From the IMG/VR virus record IMGVR_UViG_3300034283_002562: DNA of 64,000 bases. One strand, 5' to 3'. This document shows positions 48,358 through 62,366 of the stretch, piece by piece. Made by a program: the position numbers and the translations under genes. The notes beneath the pieces are model-generated. The model was not told where the DNA came from, did not search any database, and was given only the letters and a program-made list of their open reading frames with translations. Source of the DNA: an uncultured virus (IMG/VR IMGVR_UViG_3300034283_002562). Its lineage: Duplodnaviria > Heunggongvirae > Uroviricota > Caudoviricetes. Numbering within the stretch: the first letter of the stretch is position 1; each line of letters begins with the position of its first letter.

Positions 48358-48415
48358 ACAGGCTCATTTTTTCTTGTTTGCAATAAGATTATGATATGCT
48401 GAATTGAGCCTAAAA
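48358..48415 (-). ncRNA. CAGCA-stem module 8 with Cys(GCA) anticodon-like hairpin
   Basis: AGGCUCA/UGAGCCUGU stem; UCUUA-UUGCAAA-CAAGA. Confidence 0.75.
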
Positions 48416-48417
48416 TT

Positions 48418-48491
48418 TGGAGCGGACTACGAGATTCGAACTCGTTTAGCTAGCTTGGAAGGCTAGAGCACAACCCATATGCCAAGTCCGC
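48418..48491 (-). tRNA. tRNA-Gly(UCC)
   Basis: Cloverleaf, CUAGC-CUUCCAA-GCUAG, CCA. Confidence 0.9.
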
Positions 48492-48499
48492 AATGTTTA

Positions 48500-48559
48500 A
48501 CAGGATACGTTTTATTTCACCAATTGAAAGTTTTTGTATTTGCTGAATGTATCCTAAAA
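48500..48559 (-). ncRNA. CAGCA-stem module 9
   Basis: AGGAUAC/GUAUCCUGU plus AUUCAGCA; promoter at 48575-48603. Confidence 0.75.
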
Positions 48560-48713
48560 CTGTTTATACTATACATTATATAGTAATTTTATTTCTTTGT
48601 CAATAACTTTTTGATAAATAGTTATGGTAATCAAAATATTGGGAGTATTTTGAAACCTAGTCTAGAGGATCTAGGCTGTCCCATAATACATTATTTATAC
48701 TAGAGGAAACACT

Positions 48714-49547
48714 ATGTCAACATTTTGTTCTTGCATCATATGCAAAAAAGAACTTTCTATCAAGGGATTTCATTCCCATTTTATTCGTTTACATACTATC
48801 GATGGTAATATAGCTACCAAACAGTATGGAAAACTATCTACATTTAAAAATAAACAAAATGCAGATTTAAAAAATAATTTTATTAGAATCCAATATGCTA
48901 ATATTCCTAGTCACTGTAAAGAATGTGACTGTTGCTTACCATATGAAAAACGTTCTAATAGTTTTTGTTCAAGTAGTTGCAGTGCAACTTACAATAACAA
49001 CTTGCGTTCAGTAGGTGGATATAAAATGTCAATTAATTCTAGACAAAAAATATCTGAAAAAAATACTGGGCACTTGAAACCGATTTATACCAAAATTGCA
49101 TGTTGTAAAATATGCAAAAAATGGTTTGCTGGTACAAATAAAACCTGCTCACTAACCTGTAGAAATATGAGCTTTTCATTAACCGCCAAAAAAACAAAAT
49201 TAGGCGGTAATAAAAATACCAGAGCTTATGGTTGGTATTATTCAAAATTTGCTGGTAAGGTTTGGCTAGAATCATCTTATGAATACAAAGTTGCAAAAGA
49301 ATTAGATGACAATAACATTAGATGGATACGTCCATCTTTCCTTTTTTATACCTTAAATAATATAAAAAAGAGATATTACCCAGATTTCTTTTTAGAAGAC
49401 TTCAATATCTTCCTAGATCCAAAAAATGATTACCTTATTATACAAGATCTTGAAAAAATAGAATGCGTTAGAAACCAAAATAATGTAAAAGTATTAGTTT
49501 TAACTAAATTTCAATTATCTTGGAAAATAATACATTCATTGTTGTAA
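48714..49547 (+). CDS. putative PD-(D/E)xK (TnsA-like) homing endonuclease
   Basis: ESSYE...RYYPDFFL..FLDPKN. Confidence 0.78.
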   Translation: MSTFCSCIICKKELSIKGFHSHFIRLHTIDGNIATKQYGKLSTFKNKQNADLKNNFIRIQYANIPSHCKECDCCLPYEKRSNSFCSSSCSATYNNNLRSVGGYKMSINSRQKISEKNTGHLKPIYTKIACCKICKKWFAGTNKTCSLTCRNMSFSLTAKKTKLGGNKNTRAYGWYYSKFAGKVWLESSYEYKVAKELDDNNIRWIRPSFLFYTLNNIKKRYYPDFFLEDFNIFLDPKNDYLIIQDLEKIECVRNQNNVKVLVLTKFQLSWKIIHSLL

Positions 49548-49633
49548 TGGAGCTGAGTGTGGGACTCGAACCCACGGTGGGTGTTAACCAACGGCTTACA
49601 AGACCGCTCTAATCGCCGCTATAGGAACTCAGC
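49548..49633 (-). tRNA. tRNA-Thr(UGU) with long variable arm
   Basis: GCGGU-CUUGUAA-GCCGU, extra arm, T arm, CCA. Confidence 0.75.
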
Positions 49634-50027
49634 ATAGTTAGTACTGTTATGTGGGACCGTTTTTAAGATCCCACATAACAGTGTTCTTTACAATTTAACC
49701 TTTGTACCACACACAGTGCAGGTGCCATTGAGTTTTTTGAAATCAAGATTAAAAACTCTCATACCGGTACCGTATGTTTTATCTTGAAACTCATGTTTAC
49801 AATTACATTTCTTTACTTCTACAGCCATTATGCACCTCTTTTAATAAGAATGTTAATACGATTTTGATATTTACGTTTATCACGTGGTCTAACAGTTTTT
49901 TCAACTAGTTCTTGTAATTTAGCTAAACTAAAATTACCAATTCTAACCTTACCATTTTTAGTTTGATTAGGGTTAGCTTTTCTGTTTCCTTTACTAATAG
50001 TTGCCATTTGATGTCCTTATTATACTA

Positions 50028-50333
50028 TTACTTATTATTGTTGTCAAGTGTTTTTATATTTTCTTCGATAAATTTAATTGCTTCATCGACTGGTAATTCA
50101 CCCACTTCTACATGAAATACATTTCTGTCTTGTGCATGAGCACCATGTGAATTAAATGCTACTGTTGGCAATTCTTTATCAAATTTAGATACCAATCGTT
50201 CATCATTGTATGTATCTAACACTTCTTCAACAACTTCCTTTTTCTTACTGAAAATTGCATCCCAGTTATCTGCAAACTTCTGCCTGTTAACTGGTCTAGC
50301 TGCACTTCCTTTGCCGCCATGCCATCCTGCCAT
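50028..50333 (-). CDS. hypothetical protein
   Basis: GGKGSAARP..NWDAIF motif; SD present. Confidence 0.65.
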   Translation of the reverse strand: MAGWHGGKGSAARPVNRQKFADNWDAIFSKKKEVVEEVLDTYNDERLVSKFDKELPTVAFNSHGAHAQDRNVFHVEVGELPVDEAIKFIEENIKTLDNNNK

Positions 50334-50545
50334 TGTATCTCCGTTACATTTTTGTTGCCAATATAGTTTTGGCTAATTCTTTTGTTGCGATTAAATCATT
50401 CTGACTAAATGAACTTTTAATCTTTTCTGAAAATTCAATTCTTTCTTCTATTGTCATTAATCTATAAATTATTTTTATCAATTCATAATCAAATTCAGTT
50501 GGTTCTTCTAAATTTTCAAACATAAAAGTATTCTTGTCAGTGTGT

Positions 50546-50878
50546 TTAAATTTCAGGTTGAGTTTTTATGAATCGATCAATGTTTTGAATCATCAATTGT
50601 TTCAACCTAACTTTATCATATCCTGGTTCTTCTAAACATTCTGGAAGTGTTAACCGGAATAAAGTTTCTTTTTCTTCATCATATATGGATAATGCCCATA
50701 TCTGTGTTCCACAGAATCCACTAGCAGCTAATAATATCATTTGCCACCCATCACCTTTAATAAAACTATGGGTACGTTGCAATTGTGGTCCAACATTTGT
50801 TTTAAGAAAATCAAAAGTATTAGCTAATCTTTTTTGATAATCTTCTCCATATGATTCGTTTCCGTGTATTACTAGCAT
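50546..50878 (-). CDS. hypothetical protein
   Basis: Start MLVIHG after GAGG; the upstream extension overlaps a tRNA. Confidence 0.6.
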   Translation of the reverse strand: MLVIHGNESYGEDYQKRLANTFDFLKTNVGPQLQRTHSFIKGDGWQMILLAASGFCGTQIWALSIYDEEKETLFRLTLPECLEEPGYDKVRLKQLMIQNIDRFIKTQPEI

Positions 50879-50898
50879 TTGTGCCTCTGTGTTAAAAT

Positions 50899-50972
50899 TG
50901 GTGGAGACTAGGAGAGTTGAACTCCTGATAACGCCGTGCAAGGGCGTGGTTATACCATTTAACTAAATCCCC
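50899..50972 (-). tRNA. tRNA-Ala(UGC)
   Basis: G3:U70, loop CUUGCAC, CCA. Confidence 0.92.
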
Positions 50973-50977
50973 GATAT

Positions 50978-51055
50978 TGGCTCCCATCGCTGGTAACGAT
51001 CCAGCCTCATTCTCGGTTAACAGCCGAGCGCATTCACCATGATTGCTAGATGGGA
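50978..51055 (-). tRNA. tRNA-Asn(GUU), atypical T loop
   Basis: CUCGG-CUGUUAA-CCGAG, T loop AUCGUUA, CCA. Confidence 0.85.
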
Positions 51056-51753
51056 TTTATTCTTTTTTTACCGTTTTGTGGTATAAATTCAGGAACTAAT
51101 TTAGAGAATGCTATTACTAAATTTGGTTTAGAATATTTATACCCAGTTATTCTTACAAACTCATCAAATCCAACATTTTTGTATATACTATACCATTCTA
51201 TATGTTGGTTAATTCGTTGATTTTGTTTTTCTTCTTTTTCTGTTTTTATTTTTGTAAGAAGATTTTCATTTTTAACCAGTCTGGTAGAATATTCATCGAA
51301 ATCTATAATTCGTTTTTTAATCCACCCATCTGGAATTATATCAGTTTTTTTAACTTTTTTGGTTTCACGTAAAGCAATATTACTTATCCATATTGATCCA
51401 TATTGTGAATTTTTTTTACCGGATTGTAATTCACTTTGGATTTTACTAAACTGATATCTTAATAGTTCATATTTCCTTGATGATACGTATCTACATTGAT
51501 TTCCAGATTTACAATATAACATCATAATAAATGCTTTTATCATTTTATTACCATTTGCAGTTCCTGGTTTATATATTTTCATCAATAAGTAATGACATAT
51601 ATAATGTTCTCTAGCAGATAATTTTACTAAATTCATAGGATTATCTGTTCCACCCAATGATTTAGGTATTATATGATGTGTCTCTGTGTATCCATTATAT
51701 TTTTCATTTTGTCTTTTATCAATAATTTGATTGTAAATTTTTCTGTAATTCAT
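51046..51753 (-). CDS. HNH homing endonuclease
   Basis: ETHHIIPKSLGG..NLVKLSAREHYICH; KNSQYGSIWI. Confidence 0.9.
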   Translation of the reverse strand: MNYRKIYNQIIDKRQNEKYNGYTETHHIIPKSLGGTDNPMNLVKLSAREHYICHYLLMKIYKPGTANGNKMIKAFIMMLYCKSGNQCRYVSSRKYELLRYQFSKIQSELQSGKKNSQYGSIWISNIALRETKKVKKTDIIPDGWIKKRIIDFDEYSTRLVKNENLLTKIKTEKEEKQNQRINQHIEWYSIYKNVGFDEFVRITGYKYSKPNLVIAFSKLVPEFIPQNGKKRINPI

Positions 51754-52023
51754 ACTGTTAATCCATTTAACAGTATTTATGCATTTAACAGTTTTATTTA
51801 AAATAGTTTTTGATACTGTTGAAAAAAATCAATCAGTACATCTAACTTTTCCATTGCTTCTTGCTCTGTCATGTTAAATATCCTTTTTGATATATCGACA
51901 ATTATTCTTTTTATAGTTTAGTATCAAGAGTGAGTTGTACCAAGATACCGATCATTCAAAATATTGTTATACAATATCTAAATCTCGCACCGCATGTTAT
52001 TGTAAACTATTTTTTATTTATAT

Positions 52024-52118
52024 TTTATCAGGATGCGTTTTAACATTTTCAATTTATCAGGATGCGTTTTAACATTTTCAATTTATCAGGATGCGTTTTA
52101 ACATTTTCAATTTATCAG
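52024..52118. repeat. 29-bp tandem repeat, 3.3 copies
   Basis: TTTATCAGGATGCGTTTTAACATTTTCAA at 52024, 52053 and 52082. Confidence 0.95.
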
Positions 52119-52153
52119 ATTGACGTTTAAAGTTTGCTGAATGCATCCTAAAA
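52086..52153 (-). ncRNA. CAGCA-stem module 10 with Ile(GAU) anticodon hairpin
   Basis: AGGAUGC/GCAUCCUGA; UCAAU-CUGAUAA-AUUGA. Confidence 0.8.
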
Positions 52154-52157
52154 CTTT

Positions 52158-52250
52158 ACAGGATCTTTTATTTAGTGGACTTGAACCACTTAACTTACGA
52201 TTTAGAGTCGTTTGTATTATCCAAAGGAAAGTTGCTGTAAAGATCCTAAA
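52158..52250 (-). ncRNA. CAGCA-stem module 11 with CUA anticodon hairpin and T arm
   Basis: AGGAUCUUU/AAAGAUCCUGU; ACGA-CUCUAAA-UCGU; AGUGG-UUCAAGU-CCACU. Confidence 0.8.
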
Positions 52251-52251
52251 T

Positions 52252-52866
52252 TTATTTTAAAATTCTACCTTTAGTCCATCCGGGTGGGATGTCAGAGATA
52301 GCATTTATTTTCTTATTCTGTTTAGTTATTATATTATATATCCAAATTGTCCCATATTGGGAGTTTTTACAAGGGTCTGATAGTCTTTCTTTAGCTATTT
52401 TTGACATTTTCTTTTTGGATTCATCAGAGTGTGTTTTTCCAAGAAAAGAACCGATGTTTCCAGAATTTTTTAAAGAAATTTTCCGTTTAGCTTCATCTGT
52501 GTGAGATTTTCCTGTAAAACCACTTGAATTTTTTCCACCTTTGCTGTTTTGGTTGGTTTTGTTATTCAAGTTCAAGGAATTTATATAATCAAATCCACCA
52601 AAACCACCTTTTTTAATGTTATATGTGTTACTTTCTGATATAAAGTCTTCATTTACTATTTCAGCTTCTTTTTTATACATATCACCATGATTATCAAATG
52701 AAAACAAAATTTCTTTTGTAAAATTTTCAATACCATGTTTATTAATGGCATTTTTTAGATATTTCCCTGAACCCATATAGTCATCATTTATATCTGTTGT
52801 TTTATGACTTCCAATATAAATTTTACCATTTATGATGTTTGTTATTTTATAAATCAAATAATACAT
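52252..52866 (-). CDS. GIY-YIG homing endonuclease (Seg-like) with NUMOD3
   Basis: LIYKITN.INGKIYIGSH..YMGSG; GKSHTDE repeats. Confidence 0.9.
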   Translation of the reverse strand: MYYLIYKITNIINGKIYIGSHKTTDINDDYMGSGKYLKNAINKHGIENFTKEILFSFDNHGDMYKKEAEIVNEDFISESNTYNIKKGGFGGFDYINSLNLNNKTNQNSKGGKNSSGFTGKSHTDEAKRKISLKNSGNIGSFLGKTHSDESKKKMSKIAKERLSDPCKNSQYGTIWIYNIITKQNKKINAISDIPPGWTKGRILK

Positions 52867-52938
52867 AAGTGTCCCTCCACGTTATTCTTATGTATTATTT
52901 ATCTTGGTTCAATGTTTACACTTAACATTGAACCCAAA

Positions 52939-53026
52939 GGCGGAAGATGTGAGATTCGAACTCACGCAACCCTTTCGAGGTTGACGGTTTAGCAAACCGC
53001 TCCATTAACCACTCTGGCAACCTTCC
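52939..53026 (-). tRNA. tRNA-Ser(GCU)
   Basis: Type II cloverleaf, loop UUGCUAA; ends in GCC without the final A. Confidence 0.9.
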
Positions 53027-53034
53027 TATATTCA

Positions 53035-53118
53035 TGGTACGTCTGGGCAGATTCGAACTGCCAACTCCGAAGAGTATGGGTTTTAAGCCCACTATGTATT
53101 CCGTTCCATCACAGACGC
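53035..53118 (-). tRNA. tRNA-Leu(UAA)
   Basis: Type II cloverleaf, loop CUUAAAA, CCA. Confidence 0.9.
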
Positions 53119-53134
53119 ATTATATACTTTATTA

Positions 53135-53216
53135 TCAGGTTAGTTGCTTACCAAAAGCAAATCGCATATAGCGACCGGAATCGAACCGACTGTTTATTTT
53201 GCTGTAGCTAACCTAG
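53135..53216 (-). ncRNA. CAGCA-stem module 12 with T-like arm and UGG hairpin
   Basis: AGGUUAG/CUAACCUGA; CGG-UUCGAUU-CCG; UUGCU-UUUGGUA-AGCAA. Confidence 0.75.
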
Positions 53217-53220
53217 AATT

Positions 53221-53295
53221 TGGAGGCAGAGGAAGGAATCGAACCTTCGGCCTTTGGGTTATGAGCCCAACAATCTACCGCTGATATACTCTGCA
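53221..53295 (-). tRNA. tRNA-Met(CAU), initiator-like (second copy)
   Basis: 1:72 mismatch, GGG/CCC anticodon stem, CCA. Confidence 0.88.
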
Positions 53296-53319
53296 TTAAT
53301 TCATTGTGTATATTATACA

Positions 53320-54840
53320 CTAATTTTTAATATTGTCAATCTTTTTAATGTATATTTCATTTCCGATAAACATTGCATCCAAACTTGATGATTGGAACAA
53401 TTCTACAGCATTATCAGGAAATCCAGCCAATGGTTTACCAGCAATGTTCAAACTGGTATTCAAAAGAACTGGACAGTCCGTTATTTTGTAAAATTCGTCA
53501 AGTAAAGTTTTAAATATTATGTTAGTATCATCAACCATTTGAATCCTACATGTCCCATCAACATGTGTAACACCTGGTAAATTATCATGTTTCACATATA
53601 CGGTATATAGCATATATGGATCATTTATGTTTACATGAAACCATTTTTTTGCGTGTTCCGTTAATACCGAAGCACCAAATGGTCTGTATTGTTCACGGTT
53701 TTTTATTTGATTAACAATCTGTCTACTTTGTTTCATCCTAGGATCACATAATATTGATCTATTTCCTAATGCACGTGGACCAACTTCGCCATTTCCTTGA
53801 TACCACCCAATAACCTTACCATCTGCTAACATTTTAGCAGCTATTTTGATCGTATCAATTTCAGGTGTAGTACTGGGTTTGATATCGGATTGACTATATG
53901 GAAAATTGTTTAGTACAAATTTAGGTAATTCATTTTTTATTCGTAACCATTCAATACCGCCTAAACTAGTTCCTTCATCAGATGAATGAGGAGGAATGAT
54001 AACATTTTTATAATGATTTCGTATCTCCGTATTCCAGATCACATTTTGAGCAACACCACCTGAATAAGTTATACAATCGTCAGGAGACGCATACTGTTTA
54101 AATAAATCAACTATAAGTTCACCAACCCTAAAATGAACGGTATGAATCCAATCCAGTAATGTATTTTGTGAAATGGATCTGTCATTCACAAAATTATGCC
54201 ATGTATCAGGAGAAAAGATTTTATTAATAGAATCTATTTCAAAATTACGTAAATATTCAAGAAAATTGGAATGTAACTTCCCATATGATTGGAGGGCCAT
54301 GACTTTTCCAGCAATATCATTGTAATGCCCAGCAGAGATACCTAAATACTTACCAGCATCTCGCATCCCCCACCCAATTGATCCATTAGCTATATTTCCA
54401 AATGCCACAAGAGAATTATCTTTATACACCGACCATGGTCTTGCATCACCCAACCCATCAATTACAATATGCGTAGAAGGAGTTAACGGTGTCATCATCC
54501 ATGAACTTAATGCATGTGAGTAGTGATGACCAATATACCAAATTTCTTTTTCATACGGAAATCCATTTATTTTCAATGTTGCGGCATCTTTATATTTTTG
54601 AGAAATATTGAGGATTTGGTATTTTGATATGTCCACATCTATTATTATTTCATCAATTTCAGATAACTCAAGATTCCATAGTTGATTTATTTCATTAACC
54701 CATGATAGTAAATCTTGATTTCTATATCGTTTTATCTGTTTAGTTCTTTCTAATTTATGATAATGAAGTCGTGTTCCATCATAGTAACATATATTATGGT
54801 CATGGTTCAATGCCGATATTGACAATAGTTTCATATTCAT
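53320..54840 (-). CDS. carbamoyltransferase (NodU/CmcH family)
   Basis: HHYSHA, GKVMAL, SGGVAQN, GPRALGNRS, RPFG and LNTSLN motifs. Confidence 0.9.
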   Translation of the reverse strand: MNMKLLSISALNHDHNICYYDGTRLHYHKLERTKQIKRYRNQDLLSWVNEINQLWNLELSEIDEIIIDVDISKYQILNISQKYKDAATLKINGFPYEKEIWYIGHHYSHALSSWMMTPLTPSTHIVIDGLGDARPWSVYKDNSLVAFGNIANGSIGWGMRDAGKYLGISAGHYNDIAGKVMALQSYGKLHSNFLEYLRNFEIDSINKIFSPDTWHNFVNDRSISQNTLLDWIHTVHFRVGELIVDLFKQYASPDDCITYSGGVAQNVIWNTEIRNHYKNVIIPPHSSDEGTSLGGIEWLRIKNELPKFVLNNFPYSQSDIKPSTTPEIDTIKIAAKMLADGKVIGWYQGNGEVGPRALGNRSILCDPRMKQSRQIVNQIKNREQYRPFGASVLTEHAKKWFHVNINDPYMLYTVYVKHDNLPGVTHVDGTCRIQMVDDTNIIFKTLLDEFYKITDCPVLLNTSLNIAGKPLAGFPDNAVELFQSSSLDAMFIGNEIYIKKIDNIKN

Positions 54841-55280
54841 CCTGTATAAATTGCTTCCCATCCATCTTTTTCAGTAAAAAATCTTACTGCCTTGATATTT
54901 GGATATTCACCAGCATCGAACCAATGTTTTACATTAGCAGGAACACTGATTAAATCATTTGGTCCCACATCAAGTTCATAAACAGTATCAGATACATTAA
55001 AAAAGAACTTTGCAGTACCATGAGTAAATAAACGCATTTCATAATCAGTATGATAATGCTCTTTTTTAAACTGCTCTCTTAATGATTGATAGTTTTTAGT
55101 TGAACTATCTAATACAATAGTATCATTGTAAGGAACATCATAATCATATTTTATTTGTTCTATAATGTTCTCATCTGTTGGAATTCGAACATATAATACA
55201 TGAATATTATCTAATTGTCTAGCAATTTCTTCATAATTCGTGTAAGTAGTAAAATCTTCTTTATCATAAATTTTTAACAT
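54837..55280 (-). CDS. acireductone dioxygenase-like cupin
   Basis: EHYHTDYEMRLF...DLISVPA.VKHWF..G...AVRFF...GW; start MLKIY. Confidence 0.8.
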   Translation of the reverse strand: MLKIYDKEDFTTYTNYEEIARQLDNIHVLYVRIPTDENIIEQIKYDYDVPYNDTIVLDSSTKNYQSLREQFKKEHYHTDYEMRLFTHGTAKFFFNVSDTVYELDVGPNDLISVPANVKHWFDAGEYPNIKAVRFFTEKDGWEAIYTG

Positions 55281-55318
55281 ATTACTACTTATCTTTAGCA
55301 CTATTATAATGCTAAATT

Positions 55319-55391
55319 TGACAGCGCGGGTTAGATTTGAACTCCCAAGAGCGAGTTTGGGCTCGTCATGATACCATTTCATCACCGGGCT
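55319..55391 (-). pseudogene. degenerate tRNA-Trp-like pseudogene
   Basis: D arm GAUGAAAUGGUAUCAU intact; 6-nt loop CCCAAA; broken T and acceptor stems. Confidence 0.55.
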
Positions 55392-55528
55392 AAAAAAATA
55401 AATTCCAGGATAGTTTAATCTCTATGAAACCTCTATCTTCCTATTGAAAGTTATCTGGAACGGGCTAACTCACTCTTGTTTATTTTAATAGGTTAAGAGC
55501 TTAACCGCCACAAAGGGCTCCTATTGTT

Positions 55529-55618: not shown

Positions 55619-55655
55619 ATAATTTGGAGGCCGGTCTATGACCTGCCTCAATAAT

Positions 55656-56426: not shown

Positions 56427-56444
56427 AATTCCCTTTTTTATGTT

Positions 56445-56523
56445 TGGCACCCTTGGAAGGACTTGAACCTCCGACAAACCCACGTTCGTAGCGTGGTGCT
56501 CTAATCCACTGAGCTACAAGGGC
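56445..56523 (-). tRNA. tRNA-Arg(ACG)
   Basis: CCACG-CUACGAA-CGUGG, CCA. Confidence 0.9.
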
Positions 56524-56532
56524 TTTATTTCA

Positions 56533-57326: not shown

Positions 57327-57331
57327 TTGTT

Positions 57332-57607: not shown

Positions 57608-57631
57608 TTTACACCTTTGTTAATTAAAATC

Positions 57632-57725
57632 ACAGGATGATATATTGTTTCGGAGCCGGGAGATTCGAACTCCCAGAAGATACCCGCTTATCGGCTTCGG
57701 CATTTTTGTGCTGTAATCACCCTTA
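57632..57725 (-). ncRNA. CAGCA-stem module 14 with T arm
   Basis: AGGGUGAU/AUCAUCCUGU; GGGAG-UUCGAAU-CUCCC. Confidence 0.75.
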
Positions 57726-57733
57726 TTAATCAG

Positions 57734-58147: not shown

Positions 58148-58175
58148 TATATCATTCCGATAATAGTTAAAAAAT

Positions 58176-58249
58176 TGGCAGGGATACACGGATTCGAACC
58201 ATGGATGACTGGATCAAAACCAGTTGTGTTACCACTACACCATATCCCA
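58176..58249 (-). tRNA. tRNA-Gln(UUG)
   Basis: ACUGG-UUUUGAU-CCAGU, CCA. Confidence 0.9.
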
Positions 58250-58258
58250 ATTGTTATT

Positions 58259-58378
58259 ACAGGTTAGCATTTTAAGTTTTCCCAATTAAACTACATTAGT
58301 GACCAACCCTAACGCTGGGATTCGAACCCAGAACTTTCTTTTACAATAAGATTTAATAAAATTGCTGAAACTAACCTA
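58259..58378 (-). ncRNA. CAGCA-stem module 15, YrlA-like permuted tRNA mimic
   Basis: T arm CUGGG-UUCGAAU-CCCAG, capped stem CGUUAG/CUAAUG, D arm UAGUUUAAUUGGGAAAAC. Confidence 0.8.
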
Positions 58379-58416
58379 TTGGTCTTATTCGCTGGTGACT
58401 AGCCTCGAATATTCTG

Positions 58417-58482
58417 TCAGGATACACATTTTACGGGTTTGATTAGCTGTCAAATGTATGATTGTTGCTGTAGGTATCCTAG
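58417..58482 (-). ncRNA. CAGCA-stem module 16 with Ser(GCU)-like anticodon hairpin
   Basis: AGGAUAC/GUAUCCUGA; UUUGA-CAGCUAA-UCAAA; promoter at 58500-58527. Confidence 0.75.
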
Positions 58483-58536
58483 AACTGTTTATGCTATGTA
58501 TTATACATCATTTTTATTCATTGTCAATATTTATTT

Positions 58537-58611
58537 TGGAGCGGGTAATGAGATTCGAACTCACGACATTCAGGTTGGCAACTTGAAGCTCTACCACTGA
58601 GCTATACCCGC
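58537..58611 (-). tRNA. tRNA-Gly(GCC)
   Basis: Cloverleaf, loop UUGCCAA, U73, CCA. Confidence 0.9.
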
Positions 58612-58618
58612 TCAAAAT

Positions 58619-58693
58619 TGGCGGACTGTACGGAATTTGAATCCGTGATACCACCGTGACAGGGTGGCGTGATAACCGCTTCACTAACAGTCC
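58619..58693 (-). tRNA. tRNA-Asp(GUC)
   Basis: CCACC-CUGUCAC-GGUGG, CCA. Confidence 0.92.
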
Positions 58694-58815
58694 AAAATTG
58701 TTGAGTATCTAACATCATACAATACTCGGGAGACCTCTACCAGCCTCGTTTTTATTACTGAGCCTATCCGAAGATAGTGTTTAAAATGATATTAAGGTTG
58801 CCCAGCTCTAGAGTT

Positions 58816-58892
<77 letters not shown>

Positions 58893-59198
58893 ATAATTCT
58901 ATTTAAACGGAGTTTTTTCACAGGCTAATGCATGATGATATGCTATTTTCATAGACTCATATTTTTCCGTTGCTTCGCTTAATTGTTGCTGTAATTTTAG
59001 CATATCTTGTTCTACATAATCAAGATTTCTTTTAACGATATCCGATGTTCTTTTACCTGCCATATATAGACCTTTTAGAAATAAAAGAATCACCCCAGTC
59101 GGTAGCATGAAATACCGCATATTTTTTAGATTTTTCACCATGTTTTTCATGGAATTTTTTAGTAGCTTCTTCGTTTACTATTGCGGTTCTTTTCATAC

Positions 59199-59573
59199 TT
59201 ACCTCGCAAATCCACGATTTCTCAGTAATTGTGATAATTCATATTCGAATGTACCAAAATCAGACCTTTCACGCCCATAAATTGTATCAGGAACAATAAT
59301 ACCAATACTAGTCAATGCATTGTCAATCGATGGTTCATTAAAAATCGCCCATGGATATTCGTTTGTTTCATTGTTTAACAAATTGACAATGTTTGCCATC
59401 TGTTCACTAGTACCACCATTCAATACAATTGCAGTTTTGTGGTTTTCAGCCCAATCTACCAATAGTTCGTTAGTTGTACCATATTTGTTGTTGATCTCTT
59501 GCAGTGCATGCAAAGATTGTATACCGTGTTGTATAGAACTCAGGTACATGTTTGTTAAAAAATAAGCTCTCAT
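59199..59573 (-). CDS. Pth2-like phage protein
   Basis: NMYLSSIQHGIQSLHA..W...HKTAIVL..F.EP....ALTSI pattern. Confidence 0.55.
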   Translation of the reverse strand: MRAYFLTNMYLSSIQHGIQSLHALQEINNKYGTTNELLVDWAENHKTAIVLNGGTSEQMANIVNLLNNETNEYPWAIFNEPSIDNALTSIGIIVPDTIYGRERSDFGTFEYELSQLLRNRGFAR

Positions 59574-59646
59574 AGTTTTCCTATATGTTACTGAGTATTT
59601 ATTATTTGAGGTTATCAATCATCTGGGTAGTTACCAAAACTAATTA

Positions 59647-59722
59647 GGGGTGACCGATAGGACTTGAACCCATAAAATTCTGAATCACAATCAGGGTCGT
59701 CTACCAATTCCGACACGGCCAC
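59647..59722 (-). tRNA. tRNA-His(GUG); no encoded CCA, flanked by an extended stem
   Basis: CUGA-UUGUGAU-UCAG, C73. Confidence 0.85.
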
Positions 59723-59740
59723 ACCTAATTAGTCTAATTT

Positions 59741-60226
59741 TATAATAAACCACACTACGGAAGGATTCGAACCTTCGGTTGCCGTCGCACTCAACACGCC
59801 AGTGTACCTCGATACGAATCGAACGTATCTTACCACCATTTATAGTGTAGTTTATTATATAATCATATAGTAAAGTGCATTAAACGAGGGAACACGAATG
59901 CTACACATCCTCCTGTCTCCGGCCCTCAAGCTTAACATCCTTCTGGCCAGTGATGTTAAGGTGACTGATTAATACACTTTAATATAAAATTATATAGAAA
60001 CACATGCTGAAGGACGAACGGCGTATTTCCATCGAAGAACTATATCTTTCTCATCGCCGTATAGCTTCCCGCACGATATAGTCTGAGTTGCGCTTCAGGA
60101 TGTGTTTTTATATAATCATATAATAAAGCATACTACACGGAATTGAACCGTCTTCATTCAAGCCCGGAGCTCAAACTGTGATCCACACAACGCTGATCAG
60201 ACGCTAATATGCTTTATTATATGATT
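59741..60226. ncRNA. tandem array of four ~115-130 nt RNAs closed by long AT-rich terminal stems
   Basis: Inverted repeats at 59741-59859, 59866-59986, 59989-60116 and 60114-60226; T-arm motifs in two of them. Confidence 0.7.
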
Positions 60227-60302
60227 TGGTAGGACCGCCGAGACTCGAACTCGAATTCCCGGATTAAAAGTCCGGTGTTCTAACCAATTGAACTACGATC
60301 CC
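60227..60302 (-). tRNA. tRNA-Lys(UUU)
   Basis: CCGGA-CUUUUAA-UCCGG, CCA. Confidence 0.92.
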
Positions 60303-60367
60303 AAATTTTCTTGCCTTCTTTTTCTGTTTTTGTCTTTCGTTTCATAATTATTTCCTATGTTGTTATA

Positions 60368-60434
60368 GCAGGATACGTTTTTACTAGTTGAATTAAAAGT
60401 TCAGTGTAAATTGTTTGCTGAATGTATCCTAAAA
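60368..60434 (-). ncRNA. CAGCA-stem module 17 with Lys(UUU) anticodon hairpin
   Basis: AGGAUAC/GUAUCCUGC; UGAA-CUUUUAA-UUCA; promoter at 60450-60477. Confidence 0.8.
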
Positions 60435-60463
60435 CTGTTTATGCTGTTAATTATACAGCATTT

Positions 60464-60790
60464 TTATACGTTGTCAATTATTTTATCTGGATATTGTGCA
60501 TCACGGCGTTCAATTTCAGCATATGGACTGTAGCCAGGCTGTAATTCCGTGATATTAGTAAATCCATTGGTTTCTGTAATCAAACTATCATTAGAATCGA
60601 TAGAACCACGATATTTACTACCATAACTACCTTCTAATTTACCAGTACTCGGATTAAGATCACCCCATTTAGTGTGATTACCACCGATAACTTCAATATA
60701 GTAGGTTTTACCAGTTCGGTATGAATAAACAACATGTCTACCGGTATCTTCAGTTTTTGTAAAAAATTTCTTTCGGGTTTCTTCGTCCAT
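60464..60790 (-). CDS. hypothetical phage protein
   Basis: Start MDEET after AGGA. Confidence 0.65.
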   Translation of the reverse strand: MDEETRKKFFTKTEDTGRHVVYSYRTGKTYYIEVIGGNHTKWGDLNPSTGKLEGSYGSKYRGSIDSNDSLITETNGFTNITELQPGYSPYAEIERRDAQYPDKIIDNV

Positions 60791-60885
60791 AATAGTTTCC
60801 TTTGTGTTTGGTGCTTTAGAAATGAATCGAACCTCTGTCTGCAGTAAGTATAAATACAATAATATATTTATTAAAGGTTCGATTT

Positions 60886-61596
60886 ATGCCAACTAAAATT
60901 TGCCCAAAATGTCAAAACACCCATATAAAACCTGGAATATTTTGTTCTCGATCCTGTGCCAATTCAAGAGGACCAAGATCAGACGATTTTAAACAAAAAG
61001 TGTCAGATAAACTTAAAGGTACTCATTATCAAACAGAAGATGCTATAAGAAAACGAATTACATCTAGAGGATATACAGTAAGATTTGACAAACCTAATCT
61101 AGTGTGTAAAGTATGCAACACTGATACCCTATCAAAATATAAGAAAACATGTTCTAAAGAATGTTATGACCTATTAAATAAATCAAAATCACAACAACAT
61201 CCAAATTGTGGCGGACAAAAACATACCCATCGTTCTAAAATAGTAAATATTAAAAATGAAGTATTTACTGCTGAAAGTTCTTACGAAGTAAGATTATCTA
61301 CTATTTTAAACGAATTAGATATTTATTGGGTAAGACCGTCATTTATGTGGTATGTTGATGACAAACTCCAAAAACGTCGATATTATCCTGATTTCTTTTT
61401 ACCACAGTTTAATGTGTATCTTGATCCGAAAAACGAATACCTCATTAAATCCGATATACAAAAAATTATAAAAGTCTCCGATCAAAATAAATTAAACATT
61501 GTAGTAATTGGTGATCGACACATCAATGCTGCATCAATTCATCATTTAATTTATAATATGTTTTCAGATACTACCGGAGTTCTCCTCTACTATTAA
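60886..61596 (+). CDS. putative PD-(D/E)xK (TnsA-like) homing endonuclease
   Basis: FCSRSCAN; ESSYE...RYYPDFFL..YLDPKN; TATAAATA upstream. Confidence 0.78.
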   Translation: MPTKICPKCQNTHIKPGIFCSRSCANSRGPRSDDFKQKVSDKLKGTHYQTEDAIRKRITSRGYTVRFDKPNLVCKVCNTDTLSKYKKTCSKECYDLLNKSKSQQHPNCGGQKHTHRSKIVNIKNEVFTAESSYEVRLSTILNELDIYWVRPSFMWYVDDKLQKRRYYPDFFLPQFNVYLDPKNEYLIKSDIQKIIKVSDQNKLNIVVIGDRHINAASIHHLIYNMFSDTTGVLLYY

Positions 61597-61610
61597 CTAA
61601 ATCTGTAAAC

Positions 61611-61687
61611 TGGTAGGACCATTCAGATTCGAACCGAAGACATCCTGCGTGTAAGGCAGGTGCTCTAACCAACTGAGCTATGGTCCT
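61611..61687 (-). tRNA. tRNA-Val(UAC)
   Basis: CCUGC-CUUACAC-GCAGG, CCA. Confidence 0.92.
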
Positions 61688-61920
61688 GTTTATAGTTACA
61701 GTTAGTAGGGCTTAAATTGCCTACCATTAGACGACTAAAGCTATAATTGTTGCTTTCTTATTCCCGGCTATCACAGAGGTTGCCACTTGTACTTCATGGT
61801 TCTCAACTTGCAGGTTCTGGCGGAACAGAATTCTCGTATTGCCAACGTGCTTTTGGTTCAAAGCATACCACCCGTGTGTATCACCACACTTCTTATCCTC
61901 TGGGTCAGAGTATCCGTTGA

Positions 61921-62199
61921 TTAGACGGTTCGTTCTTCAAGTACTTGTTGTTCCCATTTACTTTTTAAATAGATTTTTTTACCATGCAACCAATATTCTT
62001 CTTCTGTGAAATTAGTAATAACAGCAGGGCCGTGTTCATTATGATATTTCCCATCTTGGCAATAACAAGTTCTGCGGCCATCATATCTAATAATTGCTGG
62101 TCCATCTGTGTTATGCGATCTTCCATTTTTCATAAAAACTGTTGTTGTATCAGATACGCTAATAGTGAGTTCAGGATTGTCTGGGTTAATATATTCCAT
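61921..62199 (-). CDS. hypothetical protein with H..GPA.I repeats
   Basis: HNTDGPAII / HNEHGPAVI repeats. Confidence 0.65.
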   Translation of the reverse strand: MEYINPDNPELTISVSDTTTVFMKNGRSHNTDGPAIIRYDGRRTCYCQDGKYHNEHGPAVITNFTEEEYWLHGKKIYLKSKWEQQVLEERTV

Positions 62200-62224
62200 A
62201 ATTACCAAATTGTAAAGTTAAAAT

Positions 62225-62300
62225 TGGTGCTACCGACTGGGATCGAACCAGTATAGCTGGATTTTCAGTCCAGTGCATGAACCATCACTGCCACAGTAGC
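62225..62300 (-). tRNA. tRNA-Phe(GAA)
   Basis: CUGGA-CUGAAAA-UCCAG, CCA. Confidence 0.9.
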
Positions 62301-62307
62301 AAAATTA

Positions 62308-62366
62308 TCAGGATACGCTTTTTCATTTTTCAAGAATGTTTTTTAATTGCTGCATGTATCCTAAAA
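62308..62366 (-). ncRNA. CAGCA-stem module 18 with Ser(UGA) anticodon hairpin
   Basis: AGGAUAC/GUAUCCUGA; CAUU-CUUGAAA-AAUG. Confidence 0.8.

What the first reader, a model, noticed from the sequence alone, without database searches (positions are those of the whole stretch)
48358..62366. Short modules display isolated tRNA anticodon stem-loops (Lys, Ile, Ser x2, Cys, Pro): candidate decoys for anticodon nucleases
Seen: the payload of several short modules is a hairpin with a 7-nt loop. These are CUUUUAA (Lys UUU, 60389-60403), CUGAUAA (Ile GAU, 52107-52123), CUUGAAA (Ser UGA, 62324-62338), CAGCUAA (Ser GCU-like, 58438-58454), UUGCAAA (Cys GCA, 48372-48388) and UUUGGUA (Pro UGG-like, 53144-53160). 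The first three are identical to the loops of this phage's own tRNA-Lys, tRNA-Ile and tRNA-Ser(UGA), but sit on different stems. Established: anti-phage anticodon nucleases such as PrrC (tRNA-Lys) cut anticodon loops. Inference: protein-stabilised anticodon mimics could titrate such nucleases, or synthetases and modifying enzymes, as a panel of RNA decoys. The stems are short and AT-rich, so any single match could be chance; the recurrence is the evidence.
Basis: partly seen in the sequence, partly recalled or inferred. Interest (0 to 1): 0.88.

Follow-up and report, generated by a model that had tools for sequence, protein, structure and literature searches.

The report
Phage Y-like RNAs displaying anticodon arms
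A lake phage carries, among its tRNA genes and beside a Ro60-like protein gene, a family of about 55-nt RNAs on a common stem whose tip copies a tRNA anticodon arm with a fast-changing "anticodon", which points to tRNA mimicry in the phage-host conflict, though what they do is untested.

Summary
All six hairpins are at the stated coordinates on the minus strand. Three loops equal the phage's own tRNA-Lys, tRNA-Ile and tRNA-Ser(UGA) anticodon loops: 3 of 7 short modules, while 0 of 20,000 shuffles gave 2 or more.

The modules share a scaffold: a covarying 7-bp terminal stem, an invariant CAGCAA motif and a CCUG end. They are co-oriented with the tRNAs and lie upstream of a DUF2828 protein whose predicted fold matches Ro60.

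In 215 related phage loci plus the window I found 184 distinct short modules. Of these, 78 carry a hairpin whose 7-nt loop equals a genuine phage tRNA anticodon loop (0.54 expected). Positions 32, 33, 37 and 38 are nearly fixed. Positions 34-36 change about 28 times faster, avoid A34 and are almost only NNU or NNA.

The "Pro" hairpin is better read as a D-arm analogue, and some short modules carry D-loop copies. The hairpins are thermodynamically marginal.

These are Y-RNA-like tRNA mimics that show the anticodon arm alone. A conserved phosphoesterase-kinase(-ligase) cassette follows the Ro-like gene. A decoy role against anticodon-directed nucleases is plausible but unproven.

The parts
62310..62362 (-). 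Short module with terminal stem P1, CAGCAA motif and CCUG end. Its payload hairpin at 62324-62338 has loop CUUGAAA, equal to the own tRNA-Ser(UGA) loop.
   Evidence: CM R1 59.2 bits; 10/12 sigma-70-like promoter at 62375-62403
60370..60430 (-). Short module. Its payload hairpin at 60389-60403 has loop CUUUUAA, equal to the own tRNA-Lys loop. It has an extra inner helix P2.
   Evidence: CM 63.5 bits; perfect 12/12 promoter at 60450-60477
58419..58480 (-). Short module. Its payload hairpin at 58438-58454 has loop CAGCUAA (A at position 33). Orthologues read CUGCUAA, a tRNA-Ser(GCU) loop.
   Evidence: CM 59.0 bits; perfect promoter at 58500-58527
52088..52149 (-). Short module. Its payload hairpin at 52107-52123 has loop CUGAUAA, equal to the own tRNA-Ile loop. 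Orthologues carry CUGAAAA and CUCAAAA on the same scaffold.
   Evidence: CM 65.1 bits
52024..52118 (-). Tandem repeat of 29 nt, 3.3 copies, 100% matches. It repeats the 3' half of module 52088-52149.
48502..48555 (-). Short module with a 4-bp stem and loop AAUUGGU. That loop equals a D-loop found in 15 distinct tRNAs of the related loci, so this is a D-arm analogue, not an anticodon mimic.
   Evidence: CM 54.1 bits; perfect promoter at 48575-48603
48360..48411 (-). Short module with the CAGCAU variant of the motif. Its hairpin at 48372-48388 has 4 bp plus an A.C mismatch around UUGCAAA (Cys-type loop).
   Evidence: CM 38.0 bits
53137..53214 (-). Medium module: P1, then a T-arm-like hairpin, a closed hairpin, and the hairpin 53144-53160 (UUUGGUA) at the D-arm position.
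   Evidence: CM 29.1 bits
52160..52247 (-). Medium module: P1 closing a near-complete tRNA-like body with a CUCUAAA loop (CUA triplet) and a T arm.
   Evidence: Rfam tRNA 27.9 bits against a cut-off of 29; CM 31.4 bits
47928..48038 (-). Long module with a YrlA-like core: T arm, loop-closed acceptor hairpin and D arm.
   Evidence: Rfam YrlA RF02553 41.8 bits, E 2e-6, below the cut-off of 69
58261..58377 (-). Long module with a T-arm-like hairpin.
48050..48147 (-). Long module with a T-arm-like hairpin.
47244..47328 (-). Medium module with the CAGCAU variant of the motif.
   Evidence: CM 23.8 bits
45763..46196 (-). Three modules in a row directly upstream of the Ro-like gene: 46105-46196, 45989-46094 and 45763-45977. 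The last has CUGCAU in place of CAGCAA. They lie behind a perfect promoter at 46208-46236.
44197..45609 (-). Ro60-like protein gene, 470 aa, with DUF2828 and DUF7788 domains.
   Evidence: Pfam; phrog_850 'RNA-binding protein'; AF2 model with pLDDT 69.5; Foldseek top hits are Ro60 of Thermus phage phiLo, Xenopus Ro60 and Deinococcus Rsr
36576..39959 (-). RNA end-healing and sealing genes: Rnl1-type RNA ligase 36576-37469, phosphoesterase 37460-38008 and AAA_33 PNK-like kinase 39495-39959.
   Evidence: conserved downstream of the Ro-like gene in relatives

Best explanation
The short modules are small RNAs of one phage family of Y-RNA-like partners of a Ro60-like (DUF2828) protein. They are transcribed with the tRNA operons.

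Each has a constant scaffold: a 7-bp terminal stem that covaries, an adjoining single-stranded NNN-CAGCAA motif and a CCUG 3' end. By analogy with Y RNAs this is the likely protein-binding part. Each also has a variable tip. In about half of the short modules the tip is an anticodon-arm mimic: a stem of 4-5 bp, a 7-nt loop with C32, U33, A37 and A38 kept, and a hypervariable triplet that is almost always NNU or NNA with U or G at position 34. Other modules show a D-arm copy, or T-arm, acceptor and D-arm parts (YrlA-like).

Shown here: the architecture, the covariation, the linkage to the Ro60-like gene, the linkage of that gene to a phosphoesterase-kinase(-ligase) cassette, the conservation of the anticodon-loop frame, and the fast turnover of the triplet.

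Inferred: the Ro-like ring holds the scaffold and stabilises the weak AU stems. The displayed arm then competes with real tRNAs for host factors that read anticodon arms, most likely defence nucleases that cut them. The neighbouring healing and sealing enzymes could re-join a cut mimic, whose two halves stay together through the terminal stem.
For: Window.
- 3 of 7 short modules carry own-tRNA loops; 0 of 20,000 shuffles gave 2 or more.
- The scaffold motif occurs 10 times, all on the minus strand, against a shuffle mean of 2.21.

Family (215 loci plus the window).
- 357 distinct modules, of which 184 are short.
- The best payload hairpin has a 7-nt loop in 96 of 184 (12.4 in shuffles). In those 96, C32 is 68, U33 is 86, A37 is 84 and A38 is 83.
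- 78 of 184 carry a loop identical to a genuine phage tRNA anticodon loop; shuffle mean 0.54, maximum 4 in 300 shuffles.

Structure.
- 183 of 250 scaffold seeds are closed by a perfect 7-nt complement (chance 1.4% per seed), with 17 arm variants.
- On 113 distinct CM-aligned modules 95.2% of cells pair, against 72.2% in shuffles (0 of 500 reach it) and 30-45% for slid partners. All 5 payload-stem pairs show compensatory changes.

Turnover in 56 close pairs: per-site differences are 0.25 at positions 34-36, 0.009 at 32/33/37/38, 0.057 in the stem, 0.109 in the linkers and 0.005 in P1.

Triplets are not drifting to the local composition. Across 54 distinct units, position 34 is T25 G21 C6 A2 and position 36 is T26 A24 C2 G2. 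The linkers are 57% A and 5% G.

Linkage.
- Modules are co-oriented with the nearest tRNA 466 to 1.
- 42 of 45 Ro-like loci with at least 3 kb upstream have modules upstream: 220 upstream, 4 downstream, 1 on the opposite strand.
- 149 of 149 CM hits are co-oriented with the Ro-like gene.
- Contigs found by the RNA pattern alone encode the protein in 4 of 4 genomes at least 90% complete, and in 6 of 9 in all.

Protein: Foldseek gives Ro60 of phage phiLo (E 7.5e-8, TM 0.56), Xenopus Ro60 and Deinococcus Rsr.

Context.
- The phosphoesterase occurs in 60 and the kinase in 48 of 80 loci, all co-oriented, with medians 1.4 and 1.9 kb after the Ro-like gene. 70 of the loci have at least 1.5 kb downstream. 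The Rnl1-type ligase occurs in 12.
- Perfect sigma-70 promoters sit 11-20 nt before four modules.

Literature (passages read).
- Y RNAs lie beside Ro60 and mimic tRNA, also in phages (PMC4201824).
- phiLo Ro60 binds two upstream Y-like RNAs (PMC12135203).
- The Ro60-like gp130 of Felixounavirus Bas63 counters the Ppl defence (bioRxiv 10.1101/2024.10.10.617714).
- AriB of PARIS cuts tRNA-Lys(UUU), Thr(UGU) and Asn(GUU) (PMC12409363). These are the first, second and joint-sixth most frequent module loops (16, 12 and 3).
Against: - No binding, cleavage or protection data exist.
- The hairpins are thermodynamically marginal: +1.7 to -0.2 kcal/mol for the five anticodon-type ones, and absent from the MFE folds of the four short modules folded in both calls.
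- Stems are 22% GC against 61% in tRNAs. They are no closer to cognate tRNA stems than to non-cognate ones (5.74 against 5.91 of 10 positions). Nucleases that also read the stem, D loop or elbow, as the AriB paper reports for AriB, may therefore ignore them.
- Whether triplets are real anticodons beyond per-position composition is not significant.
- About half of the short modules are not canonical anticodon mimics.
- Bas63 gp130 protects T7 from Ppl when expressed alone, so at least that activity needs no phage RNA. I did not test whether gp130 is an orthologue of this protein; Felixounavirus HY02 carries the family.
- RNA-run contigs cover the region evenly at low depth and cannot show transcription or RNA ends.
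- Module rows are related, so the counts are not independent events. The CM alignment is fitted to the structure it tests.
Confidence: 0.45

Rival explanations
1. Tether or adaptor, not decoy. As in Deinococcus, where Y RNA tethers Ro60 to PNPase, the displayed tRNA arms are handles. They would bring tRNA-handling enzymes to the Ro-like ring: the phage's own kinase, phosphoesterase and ligase, or host RNases and modification enzymes. The purpose would be repair or quality control of tRNAs. The triplet is simply unconstrained.
For: - The heal-and-seal cassette is conserved next to the Ro-like gene.
- Y RNA tethering is established for Ro60 and PNPase, and phiLo Ro60, its Yrl RNAs and host PNPase form a complex (abstract and passages).
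- Different modules show different tRNA parts: the anticodon arm, the D arm and a YrlA-like body.
- Triplet identity is not significantly anticodon-like beyond per-position composition.
- An earlier scan note on a bacterial Y RNA array found an anticodon-arm subclass whose triplet differs in every relative (e1-2660811).
Against: - The triplet changes 2.3 times faster than the linkers and is far from linker composition: A34 is avoided, G is enriched at positions 34 and 35, and position 36 is almost only U or A. An unconstrained site would not behave this way.
- A single handle would suffice, yet phages keep several modules with different triplets.
Confidence: 0.25
2. Mimics of substrates for anticodon-loop modification enzymes, or of other readers of the anticodon arm such as the ribosome or synthetases. 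The RNAs would sponge or redirect enzymes that build bulky A37 modifications (t6A on U36-A37, i6A on A36-A37-A38) or wobble modifications, and so change how host tRNAs decode.
For: In 85 of 96 seven-nt loops position 36 is U or A, together with A37 in 84 and A38 in 83. From recalled knowledge these are the determinants of the t6A and i6A classes. G or C at position 36 occurs in 4 of 54 distinct units, although G and C are common at positions 34 and 35.
Against: - No tRNA-modification enzyme is linked to the modules. The carbamoyltransferase in the window's tRNA region is absent from all 80 related loci.
- Ser-type loops are frequent, and from recalled knowledge SerRS ignores the anticodon, which argues against a synthetase target.
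- The same U36/A36 plus A37 pattern would also suit nucleases that read modified or U-rich loops.
Confidence: 0.12
3. No function of their own. The modules would be decayed tRNA fragments, processing signals of the tRNA transcripts, or inverted-repeat mobile elements that spread in tRNA clusters.
For: - They lie 5-6 nt after tRNA 3' ends or just behind promoters.
- The region is full of homing endonuclease genes.
- One module has its 3' half tandemly triplicated.
Against: - Orientation is strict: 466 to 1 with tRNAs, and 149 of 149 with the Ro-like gene.
- The terminal stem covaries with 17 variants.
- The loop frame is kept while neighbouring linkers drift.
- The adjacent tRNA shares the triplet in only 1 of 46 cases downstream and 2 of 46 upstream. 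Stems are unrelated to cognate tRNAs, so these are not local copies of tRNA arms.
- The scaffold recurs in a cultured cyanophage, in KVP40 and in a Felixounavirus.
Confidence: 0.05

Closest known systems
YrlA-type bacterial and phage Y RNAs with Ro60/Rsr (Chen et al. 2014, PMC4201824; Rfam RF02553)
   Same: - Encoded next to, and co-oriented with, a Ro60-fold protein gene.
- The 5' and 3' ends form a stem.
- The variable part mimics tRNA.
- The window's long module 47928-48038 aligns to the YrlA T arm, closed acceptor and D arm.
   Different: - The protein is DUF2828/DUF7788 and is not hit by a TROVE model in Pfam.
- The stem-adjacent motif is CAGCAA.
- The YrlA model scores 41.8 bits against a cut-off of 69, and its outer stems do not fit.
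- The short modules are half the size and show only an anticodon arm, the very part that YrlA lacks.
Deinococcus radiodurans Yrn1
   Same: Chen et al. model it with a possible 'anticodon arm' with a 5-bp stem (passage read).
   Different: That loop has 6 nt and belongs to a larger RNA. Here the loop has 7 nt with the full C32-U33...A37-A38 frame. It is the only payload of the module, recurs in several modules per phage and carries different triplets.
Thermus phage phiLo Ro60 with Yrl1 and Yrl2 (PMC12135203; PDB 9L5Y, 9KOP)
   Same: It is the best structural match of the window's protein. Two Y-like RNAs lie upstream of the gene, and an anti-defence role is proposed through host PNPase.
   Different: - Sequence identity in the structural alignment is only 14-17%.
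- The Yrl RNAs are described with a CGAA motif in a large bulge.
- The word 'anticodon' does not occur in that paper's main text (term search).
Bas63 gp130 (Felixounavirus), a Ro60-like counter of the Ppl defence (bioRxiv 10.1101/2024.10.10.617714)
   Same: It is a Ro60-like phage protein encoded beside the tRNA genes. The authors guess that some 'tRNAs' there are Y RNAs. The related Felixounavirus HY02 has this protein family and two scaffold matches just after the gene.
   Different: The protein alone protects T7 from Ppl. No RNAs were defined in that work. I did not test whether gp130 is an orthologue of the window's protein.
Phage answers to anticodon nucleases: T4 Pnk and Rnl1 against PrrC (recalled), and T5 tRNAs against PARIS AriB (PMC12409363)
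   Same: Same conflict and the same kinds of neighbouring genes (kinase, phosphoesterase, Rnl1-type ligase). The AriB targets Lys(UUU), Thr(UGU) and Asn(GUU) are among the commoner module loops (16, 12 and 3 of 96).
   Different: Those systems repair or replace whole tRNAs. No isolated anticodon-arm RNA is known as a counter-measure; literature searches found none.
Class I RNAs of Dictyostelia (Rfam RF01414; PMC7919456)
   Same: - Length of about 42-65 nt.
- A short stem joins the two ends.
- A conserved single-stranded motif ending in ACAGCAA follows the 5' strand of the stem.
- The middle is variable.
- The 3' end reads CUG(U), with its C paired to the 5' G.
- Four window modules align over the full model.
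   Different: - Scores are 20.6-29.9 bits against a cut-off of 41.5; the best E-value is 0.04 for the 17.7-kb search.
- They come from eukaryotic genes with their own promoter element.
- The known binder is an RRM protein.
- They are reported as unique to Dictyostelia.
- Homology is unproven.

Membership tests
Y RNA / YrlA (Rfam RF02553) | Encoded adjacent to a Ro60 (TROVE plus vWA ring) protein gene | tested here: met
   Fold match to Ro60 structures. Modules lie upstream of the gene in 42 of 45 loci. The Pfam TROVE model itself does not hit; only DUF2828, DUF7788 and a weak VWA_2 match do.
Y RNA / YrlA (Rfam RF02553) | A stem formed by the 5' and 3' ends that carries the Ro60 binding site | tested here: inconclusive
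   The terminal stem is present and covaries. The conserved motif is CAGCAA, not the described Ro-binding helix. Binding cannot be tested with these tools.
Y RNA / YrlA (Rfam RF02553) | A tRNA-like domain with T arm, D arm and loop-closed acceptor stem | tested here: not met
   Met only by long modules such as 47928-48038. The short modules of this finding have a single hairpin.
Y RNA / YrlA (Rfam RF02553) | Score at or above the Rfam gathering cut-off | tested here: not met
   The best window match scores 41.8 bits against 69. No short module matches at all.
tRNA | Cloverleaf with acceptor stem, D arm and T arm | tested here: not met
   ARAGORN and the Rfam tRNA model call none of the short modules.
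tRNA anticodon arm (mimicry, not membership) | A stem of about 5 bp and a 7-nt loop with Y32, U33, a variable 34-36, R37 and A38 | tested here: met
   96 of 184 best hairpins have 7-nt loops, with U33 in 86 of 96 and A37 in 84 of 96. 78 of 184 equal a genuine tRNA loop against 0.54 expected.
Dictyostelid Class I RNA (Rfam RF01414) | Score at or above the gathering cut-off, plus stem, 11-nt motif and CUGU end | tested here: not met
   Scores of 29.9, 29.2, 23.1 and 20.6 bits against 41.5. The architecture is alike. A wider gathering-level scan printed only its top 150 rows, all tRNA, so it gave no answer.
RNA decoy of anticodon nucleases | Binds or is cut by the nuclease and protects tRNA or the phage | not testable with these tools
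   No such family is described in the papers found. Bench work is needed.

The most novel reading that the evidence does not exclude
Many large phages carry a panel of Ro60-held mini-RNAs, each presenting one isolated tRNA limb, most often an anticodon arm whose triplet evolves under an arms race. These RNAs would act as renewable bait for host anticodon nucleases. A cut mimic stays clamped by its terminal stem and the Ro-like ring, and the co-encoded phosphoesterase, kinase and ligase re-seal it.

A bolder extension is that the same scaffold (stem, ACAGCAA, CUGU end) is the ancestor or cousin of the enigmatic Class I RNAs of social amoebae. That would give those RNAs a candidate Ro-like partner.
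Probability: 0.25. Interest if true: 0.92.

Novelty: new variant of a known kind. Interest (0 to 1): 0.8.

Why it matters
tRNA cleavage is now recognised as a common anti-phage strategy. The known viral answers are whole replacement tRNAs and repair enzymes. A widespread class of small RNAs that shows only the anticodon arm on a Ro60-type scaffold would be a third answer.

It would also suggest a role for the DUF2828 Ro-like proteins found in 711 phage records, and for the "pseudo-tRNA" features next to the gene in KVP40.

The family is testable in culture. The scaffold was found in Synechococcus phage BUCT-ZZ01, Vibrio phage KVP40 and E. coli Felixounavirus HY02.

It also extends the idea of Y RNAs as tRNA mimics from the elbow and acceptor half to the anticodon half.

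Tried and rejected
- Nearest-neighbour folding of whole modules and of the isolated hairpins does not recover the claimed stem-loops. The structure therefore rests on comparative evidence only.
- Megablast of the 18-kb region against the phage collection found only tRNA-sized matches.
- The window's own assembly is not held, and the nearest record is a 99% identical fragment.
- Sequence search of the Ro-like protein against PDB chains found nothing. Only the fold search worked.
- The idea that the 513-aa ORF inside the tRNA region was the Ro-like protein was wrong. It is a carbamoyltransferase and is absent from all 80 related loci, so I dropped a t6A-type link.
- I tested whether a module copies the anticodon of the neighbouring tRNA. 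It does not: 1 of 46 downstream and 2 of 46 upstream.
- I tested whether module stems copy cognate tRNA stems. They do not.
- An inner helix P2 occurs in 40 of 97 modules against 21.7 expected. This is a modest enrichment and holds for the 60-64-nt subclass only.
- Expression: two metatranscriptome runs of one sample hold 73-79% of the stretch as contigs. The depth is flat and low, and DNA carry-over cannot be excluded, so this is no evidence of transcription or of RNA ends.
- The gathering-level Rfam scan of eight loci returned only tRNA rows in the visible part.
- Two window CM matches are doubtful and were not counted: 50554-50609 (16.3 bits, no CAGCA motif) and 57633-57724 (16.8 bits).
- Earlier-findings look-ups by place and by sequence returned nothing.
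- Literature searches for DUF2828 and DDB_G0281243 gave nothing useful.

Full report
**Setting**

The window is part of a T4-like phage from lake-water metagenomes. Between 47.1 and 63.1 kb it carries 21 tRNA genes, all on the minus strand. They are interspersed with homing-endonuclease genes and small ORFs.

**The observation**

Read on the minus strand, each of the six stated intervals is a small hairpin. Three loops are CUUUUAA, CUGAUAA and CUUGAAA. They are identical to the anticodon loops of the phage's own tRNA-Lys(UUU), tRNA-Ile(GAU) and tRNA-Ser(UGA), on unrelated stems.

The fourth loop, CAGCUAA, has A at position 33. Its orthologues in relatives read CUGCUAA, a genuine tRNA-Ser(GCU) loop. 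The fifth has an A.C mismatch closing UUGCAAA, the commonest Cys loop of related phages. The sixth, UUUGGUA, has U at position 37.

Within the window, 3 of 7 short modules carry an own-tRNA loop on a stem of at least 4 bp. In 20,000 shuffles of the payloads none gave two or more.

**What the modules are**

All modules share one scaffold: (U)AGG plus 4 or more variable stem bases, then 2-4 nt, then CAGCAA, then the payload, then the complementary strand ending in CCUG. The motif occurs 10 times in the window and only on the minus strand (shuffle mean 2.21).

I count six clear short modules (52-62 nt) and nine medium or long ones. The stem covaries. Variants include GGAUAC/GUAUCC, GGCUCA/UGAGCC, GGUUAG/CUAACC, GGCUAG/CUAGCC and GGAUCUUU/AAAGAUCC.

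The long modules hold T-arm-like hairpins. Module 47928-48038 aligns to Rfam YrlA across the T arm, loop-closed acceptor hairpin and D arm. It scores 41.8 bits (E 2e-6), below the cut-off of 69, and the outer stems do not fit the model.

Three modules lie directly upstream of a 470-aa gene (44197-45609) with DUF2828 and DUF7788 domains. An AlphaFold model built from 20 homologues has pLDDT 69.5 and shows helical repeats followed by an alpha/beta domain. Its best Foldseek hits in the PDB are Ro60 of Thermus phage phiLo (E 7.5e-8, TM 0.56), Xenopus Ro60 and Deinococcus Rsr.

**Relatives**

The protein has at least 222 relatives in IMG/VR. It matches 711 cultured-phage records, including KVP40-like vibriophages, Felixounaviruses, Listeria, Staphylococcus and Campylobacter phages, and mycobacteriophages annotated 'Ro-like RNA binding protein'.

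From 215 loci plus the window I harvested 357 distinct modules, 184 of them 72 nt or shorter.

The link to the protein gene is tight:

- 42 of 45 loci with at least 3 kb upstream of the gene have co-oriented modules there: 220 upstream, 4 downstream and 1 on the opposite strand. The nearest module often ends about 80 nt before the start codon.
- All 149 covariance-model hits in 55 sources are co-oriented with the gene.
- Contigs found by the RNA pattern alone encode the protein in 4 of 4 genomes at least 90% complete, and in 6 of 9 overall.
- Modules share the strand of the nearest tRNA 466 times to 1.

The scaffold, scored with the model built here, is also present in Synechococcus phage BUCT-ZZ01 (53.2, 45.3 and 38.9 bits), in KVP40 (34.6 bits) and in E. 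coli phage HY02 (28.8 bits).

**Structure support**

Of 250 distinct scaffold seeds in the protein-anchored loci, 183 are closed by a perfect 7-nt complement, where 1.4% would be expected by chance. There are 17 arm variants.

On 113 distinct model-aligned modules 95.2% of cells pair. Shuffles give 72.2% (0 of 500 reach the observed value) and slid partners give 30-45%. Eleven of 12 pairs show changes on both sides, including all five pairs of the payload stem. This alignment is fitted to the model, so the count leans towards the structure.

**The anticodon-arm signal**

The best payload hairpin has a 7-nt loop in 96 of 184 short modules, against 12.4 in shuffles. In those 96 loops C32 is 68, U33 is 86, A37 is 84 and A38 is 83, while positions 34-36 vary.

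ARAGORN finds 2051 tRNAs (1371 distinct) in the same loci. In 78 of 184 modules a hairpin carries a 7-nt loop identical to one of their anticodon loops. Shuffles give a mean of 0.54 and a maximum of 4 in 300. The commonest loops are Lys UUU (16), Thr UGU (12), Ser UGA (6), Tyr GUA (6), Cys GCA (4), and Arg UCU, Ile GAU and Asn GUU (3 each).

The same stem carries different triplets. For example, UUAGA/UCUAA occurs with GAU, UCU, UGU and UUU. The window's Ile module has orthologues that read GAA and CAA.

In 56 close pairs of modules the per-site difference is:

| Region | Per-site difference |
|---|---|
| Triplet, positions 34-36 | 0.25 |
| Loop positions 32, 33, 37, 38 | 0.009 |
| Payload stem | 0.057 |
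| Linkers | 0.109 |
| Terminal stem P1 | 0.005 |

The pairs are not independent of one another.

The triplet is not drifting to the local composition. Across 54 distinct units, position 34 is T25 G21 C6 A2 and position 36 is T26 A24 C2 G2. The linkers are 57% A and 5% G. The mimic therefore keeps the U-turn frame, avoids A34 as real tRNAs do, and is confined to NNU and NNA triplets.

One caution applies. Given this frame, a match to some tRNA is nearly automatic. 43 of 54 triplets are common anticodons against 38.8 after column permutation, and 369 of 5000 permutations reach that number. The named specificities add little on their own.

**What is not an anticodon mimic**

Nine of 184 short modules carry a 4-bp stem with a loop identical to a genuine D-loop, such as AAUUGGU, against 0.18 expected. 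The window's module 48502-48555 is one of them.

The 'Pro' hairpin at 53144-53160 follows a T-arm-like hairpin and a closed hairpin. That is the place the D arm occupies in the YrlA-like module, and its GG fits a D-loop.

The module that sits just before the ribosome-binding site of the Ro-like gene in many relatives has an 8-9-nt loop around CAUA.

Module 52160-52247 encloses an almost complete tRNA-like body with a CUA triplet. The Rfam tRNA model scores it 27.9 bits against a cut-off of 29.

Overall, the scaffold displays different pieces of tRNA, and the anticodon arm is the commonest tip among short modules.

**Weak points**

- The hairpins are AU-rich: 22% GC against 61% in tRNA anticodon stems.
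- Their calculated energies are +1.7 to -0.2 kcal/mol, and they are absent from the MFE folds of the four short modules folded in both calls.
- Their stems are no closer to cognate than to non-cognate tRNA stems (5.74 against 5.91 of 10 positions).
- A subclass of 60-64 nt has a further helix, UAC...GUA or a covarying AAC...GUU, separated from the arm by 1 nt on the 5' side and 3 nt on the 3' side. It occurs in 40 of 97 modules against 21.7 expected.

**Expression**

Seven perfect 12/12 sigma-70 consensus promoters lie in the region, all on the minus strand. Four sit 11-20 nt before a module, and a fifth sits before the Ro-like gene. Other modules start 5-6 nt after the CCA end of a tRNA.

Two metatranscriptome runs of one sample contain contigs across modules 58261-58480 and 60370-60430 with no differences. 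Depth is flat and low, and DNA carry-over cannot be excluded.

**Context**

In the relatives the Ro-like gene is followed, on the same strand, by several genes:

- a phosphoesterase (phrog_547) in 60 of 80 loci, median 1.4 kb downstream;
- a PNK-like AAA_33 kinase in 48 of 80 loci, median 1.9 kb downstream;
- an Rnl1-type RNA ligase in 12 of 80 loci.

Seventy of the 80 loci have at least 1.5 kb of sequence downstream. In the window the same three genes lie 4-9 kb further on, with PTH2 and a YqeY-like gene directly after the Ro-like gene.

Healing and sealing enzymes of this kind are, from recalled knowledge, what T4 uses to undo PrrC cleavage of tRNA-Lys.

From papers of which I read passages:

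- Y RNAs lie beside Ro60 and mimic tRNA in more than 250 bacteria and phages (PMC4201824).
- phiLo Ro60 binds two upstream Y-like RNAs and joins host PNPase (PMC12135203).
- Bas63 gp130, a Ro60-like protein next to the tRNA genes of a Felixounavirus, counters the Ppl defence. It does so even when moved alone into T7 (bioRxiv 10.1101/2024.10.10.617714).
- AriB of PARIS cuts tRNA-Lys(UUU), Thr(UGU) and Asn(GUU), but also contacts the stem and the D loop (PMC12409363).

**Interpretation**

The safest reading is that these are Y-RNA-like partners of a Ro60-like protein whose variable tip mimics a tRNA limb. That makes them a new variant of a known kind.

The conserved loop frame, the constrained but fast-changing triplet, the several differently 'addressed' copies per phage and the RNA-repair neighbourhood together favour a role in the conflict over tRNA anticodon arms. 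A competitive mimic, or decoy, is the most economical mechanism. A tether for repair or processing enzymes, or a sponge for modification enzymes, remains open. None of these can be settled without experiments.

**Prior description**

I found no description of such anticodon-arm-only Y-like RNAs in full-text searches.

**A side observation**

The scaffold resembles dictyostelid Class I RNAs, which have a stem, a motif ending in ACAGCAA, a variable middle and a CUGU end. Four window modules align over the full Rfam model at 20.6-29.9 bits against a cut-off of 41.5. This is a lead, not a finding.

Noticed in passing
window 48501-48554, 62309-62361, 60369-60429, 52087-52148 (minus strand): The short modules give full-length, sub-threshold matches to Rfam Dicty_Class_I_RNA: 29.9, 29.2, 23.1 and 20.6 bits against a cut-off of 41.5. 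Both share a stem, a motif ending in ACAGCAA, a variable AU-rich middle and a CUG(U) end. Class I RNAs are reported as unique to Dictyostelia and of unknown mechanism.
   Followed up: partly
L039:9933-9988, L082:9930-9985, L079:9931-9987 and about 20 further loci: In many relatives the module that ends 13-20 nt before the start codon of the Ro-like gene, just ahead of its AAAGGA ribosome-binding site, has a distinct 8-9-nt loop around CAUA instead of an anticodon-type loop. It may be an autoregulatory site or the 'core' partner RNA.
   Followed up: partly
window 52024-52118: A perfect tandem repeat of 29 nt (3.3 copies) triplicates the 3' half of module 52088-52149. This gives three alternative closing strands for one 5' strand.
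   Followed up: no
window 45677-45704, 46208-46236, 48575-48603, 50019-50047, 53312-53339, 58500-58527, 60450-60477 (minus strand): Seven perfect 12/12 TTGACA-N16/17-TATAAT promoters lie here, all on the minus strand. The total count of promoter-like sites is not above shuffles.
   Followed up: partly
window 52253-52939 and 53021-55527: Contigs of a lake DNA run join across these intervals. Natural variants therefore lack the GIY-YIG endonuclease ORF and, separately, the carbamoyltransferase and ARD genes between tRNA-Ser(GCU) and tRNA-Ser(UGA).
   Followed up: no
window 52160-52247 (minus strand): This module encloses a near-complete tRNA-like body with a CUCUAAA loop (CUA, the amber-reading triplet) and a T arm, closed by the scaffold stem instead of an acceptor end. 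The Rfam tRNA model scores it 27.9 bits against 29.
   Followed up: partly
L218 (KVP40) 3507-3753, 5304-5419, 7201-7282, 9065-9139: KVP40's record annotates five 'tRNA-Pseudo' features of 75-124 nt in the tRNA cluster upstream of its Ro-like gene. They may be long modules of this family. One short scaffold match lies at 7997-8056.
   Followed up: partly
L094 (contig labelled as a giant-virus MAG), 3001-3150: Two tandem 74-nt scaffold copies with non-anticodon payloads lie next to a Ro-like protein match inside the same 3.2-kb stretch.
   Followed up: partly
window 53320-54861 (minus strand): A 513-aa carbamoyltransferase (Carbam_trans_N and Carbam_trans_C) sits inside the tRNA region. It is absent from all 80 related loci, so it is probably an unrelated accessory gene.
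   Followed up: yes
window 4531-7674, 33206-33796, 47336-47960: The phage encodes its own ClpB-like ATPase, DnaJ, ClpP, GroES and a PPIase.
   Followed up: no
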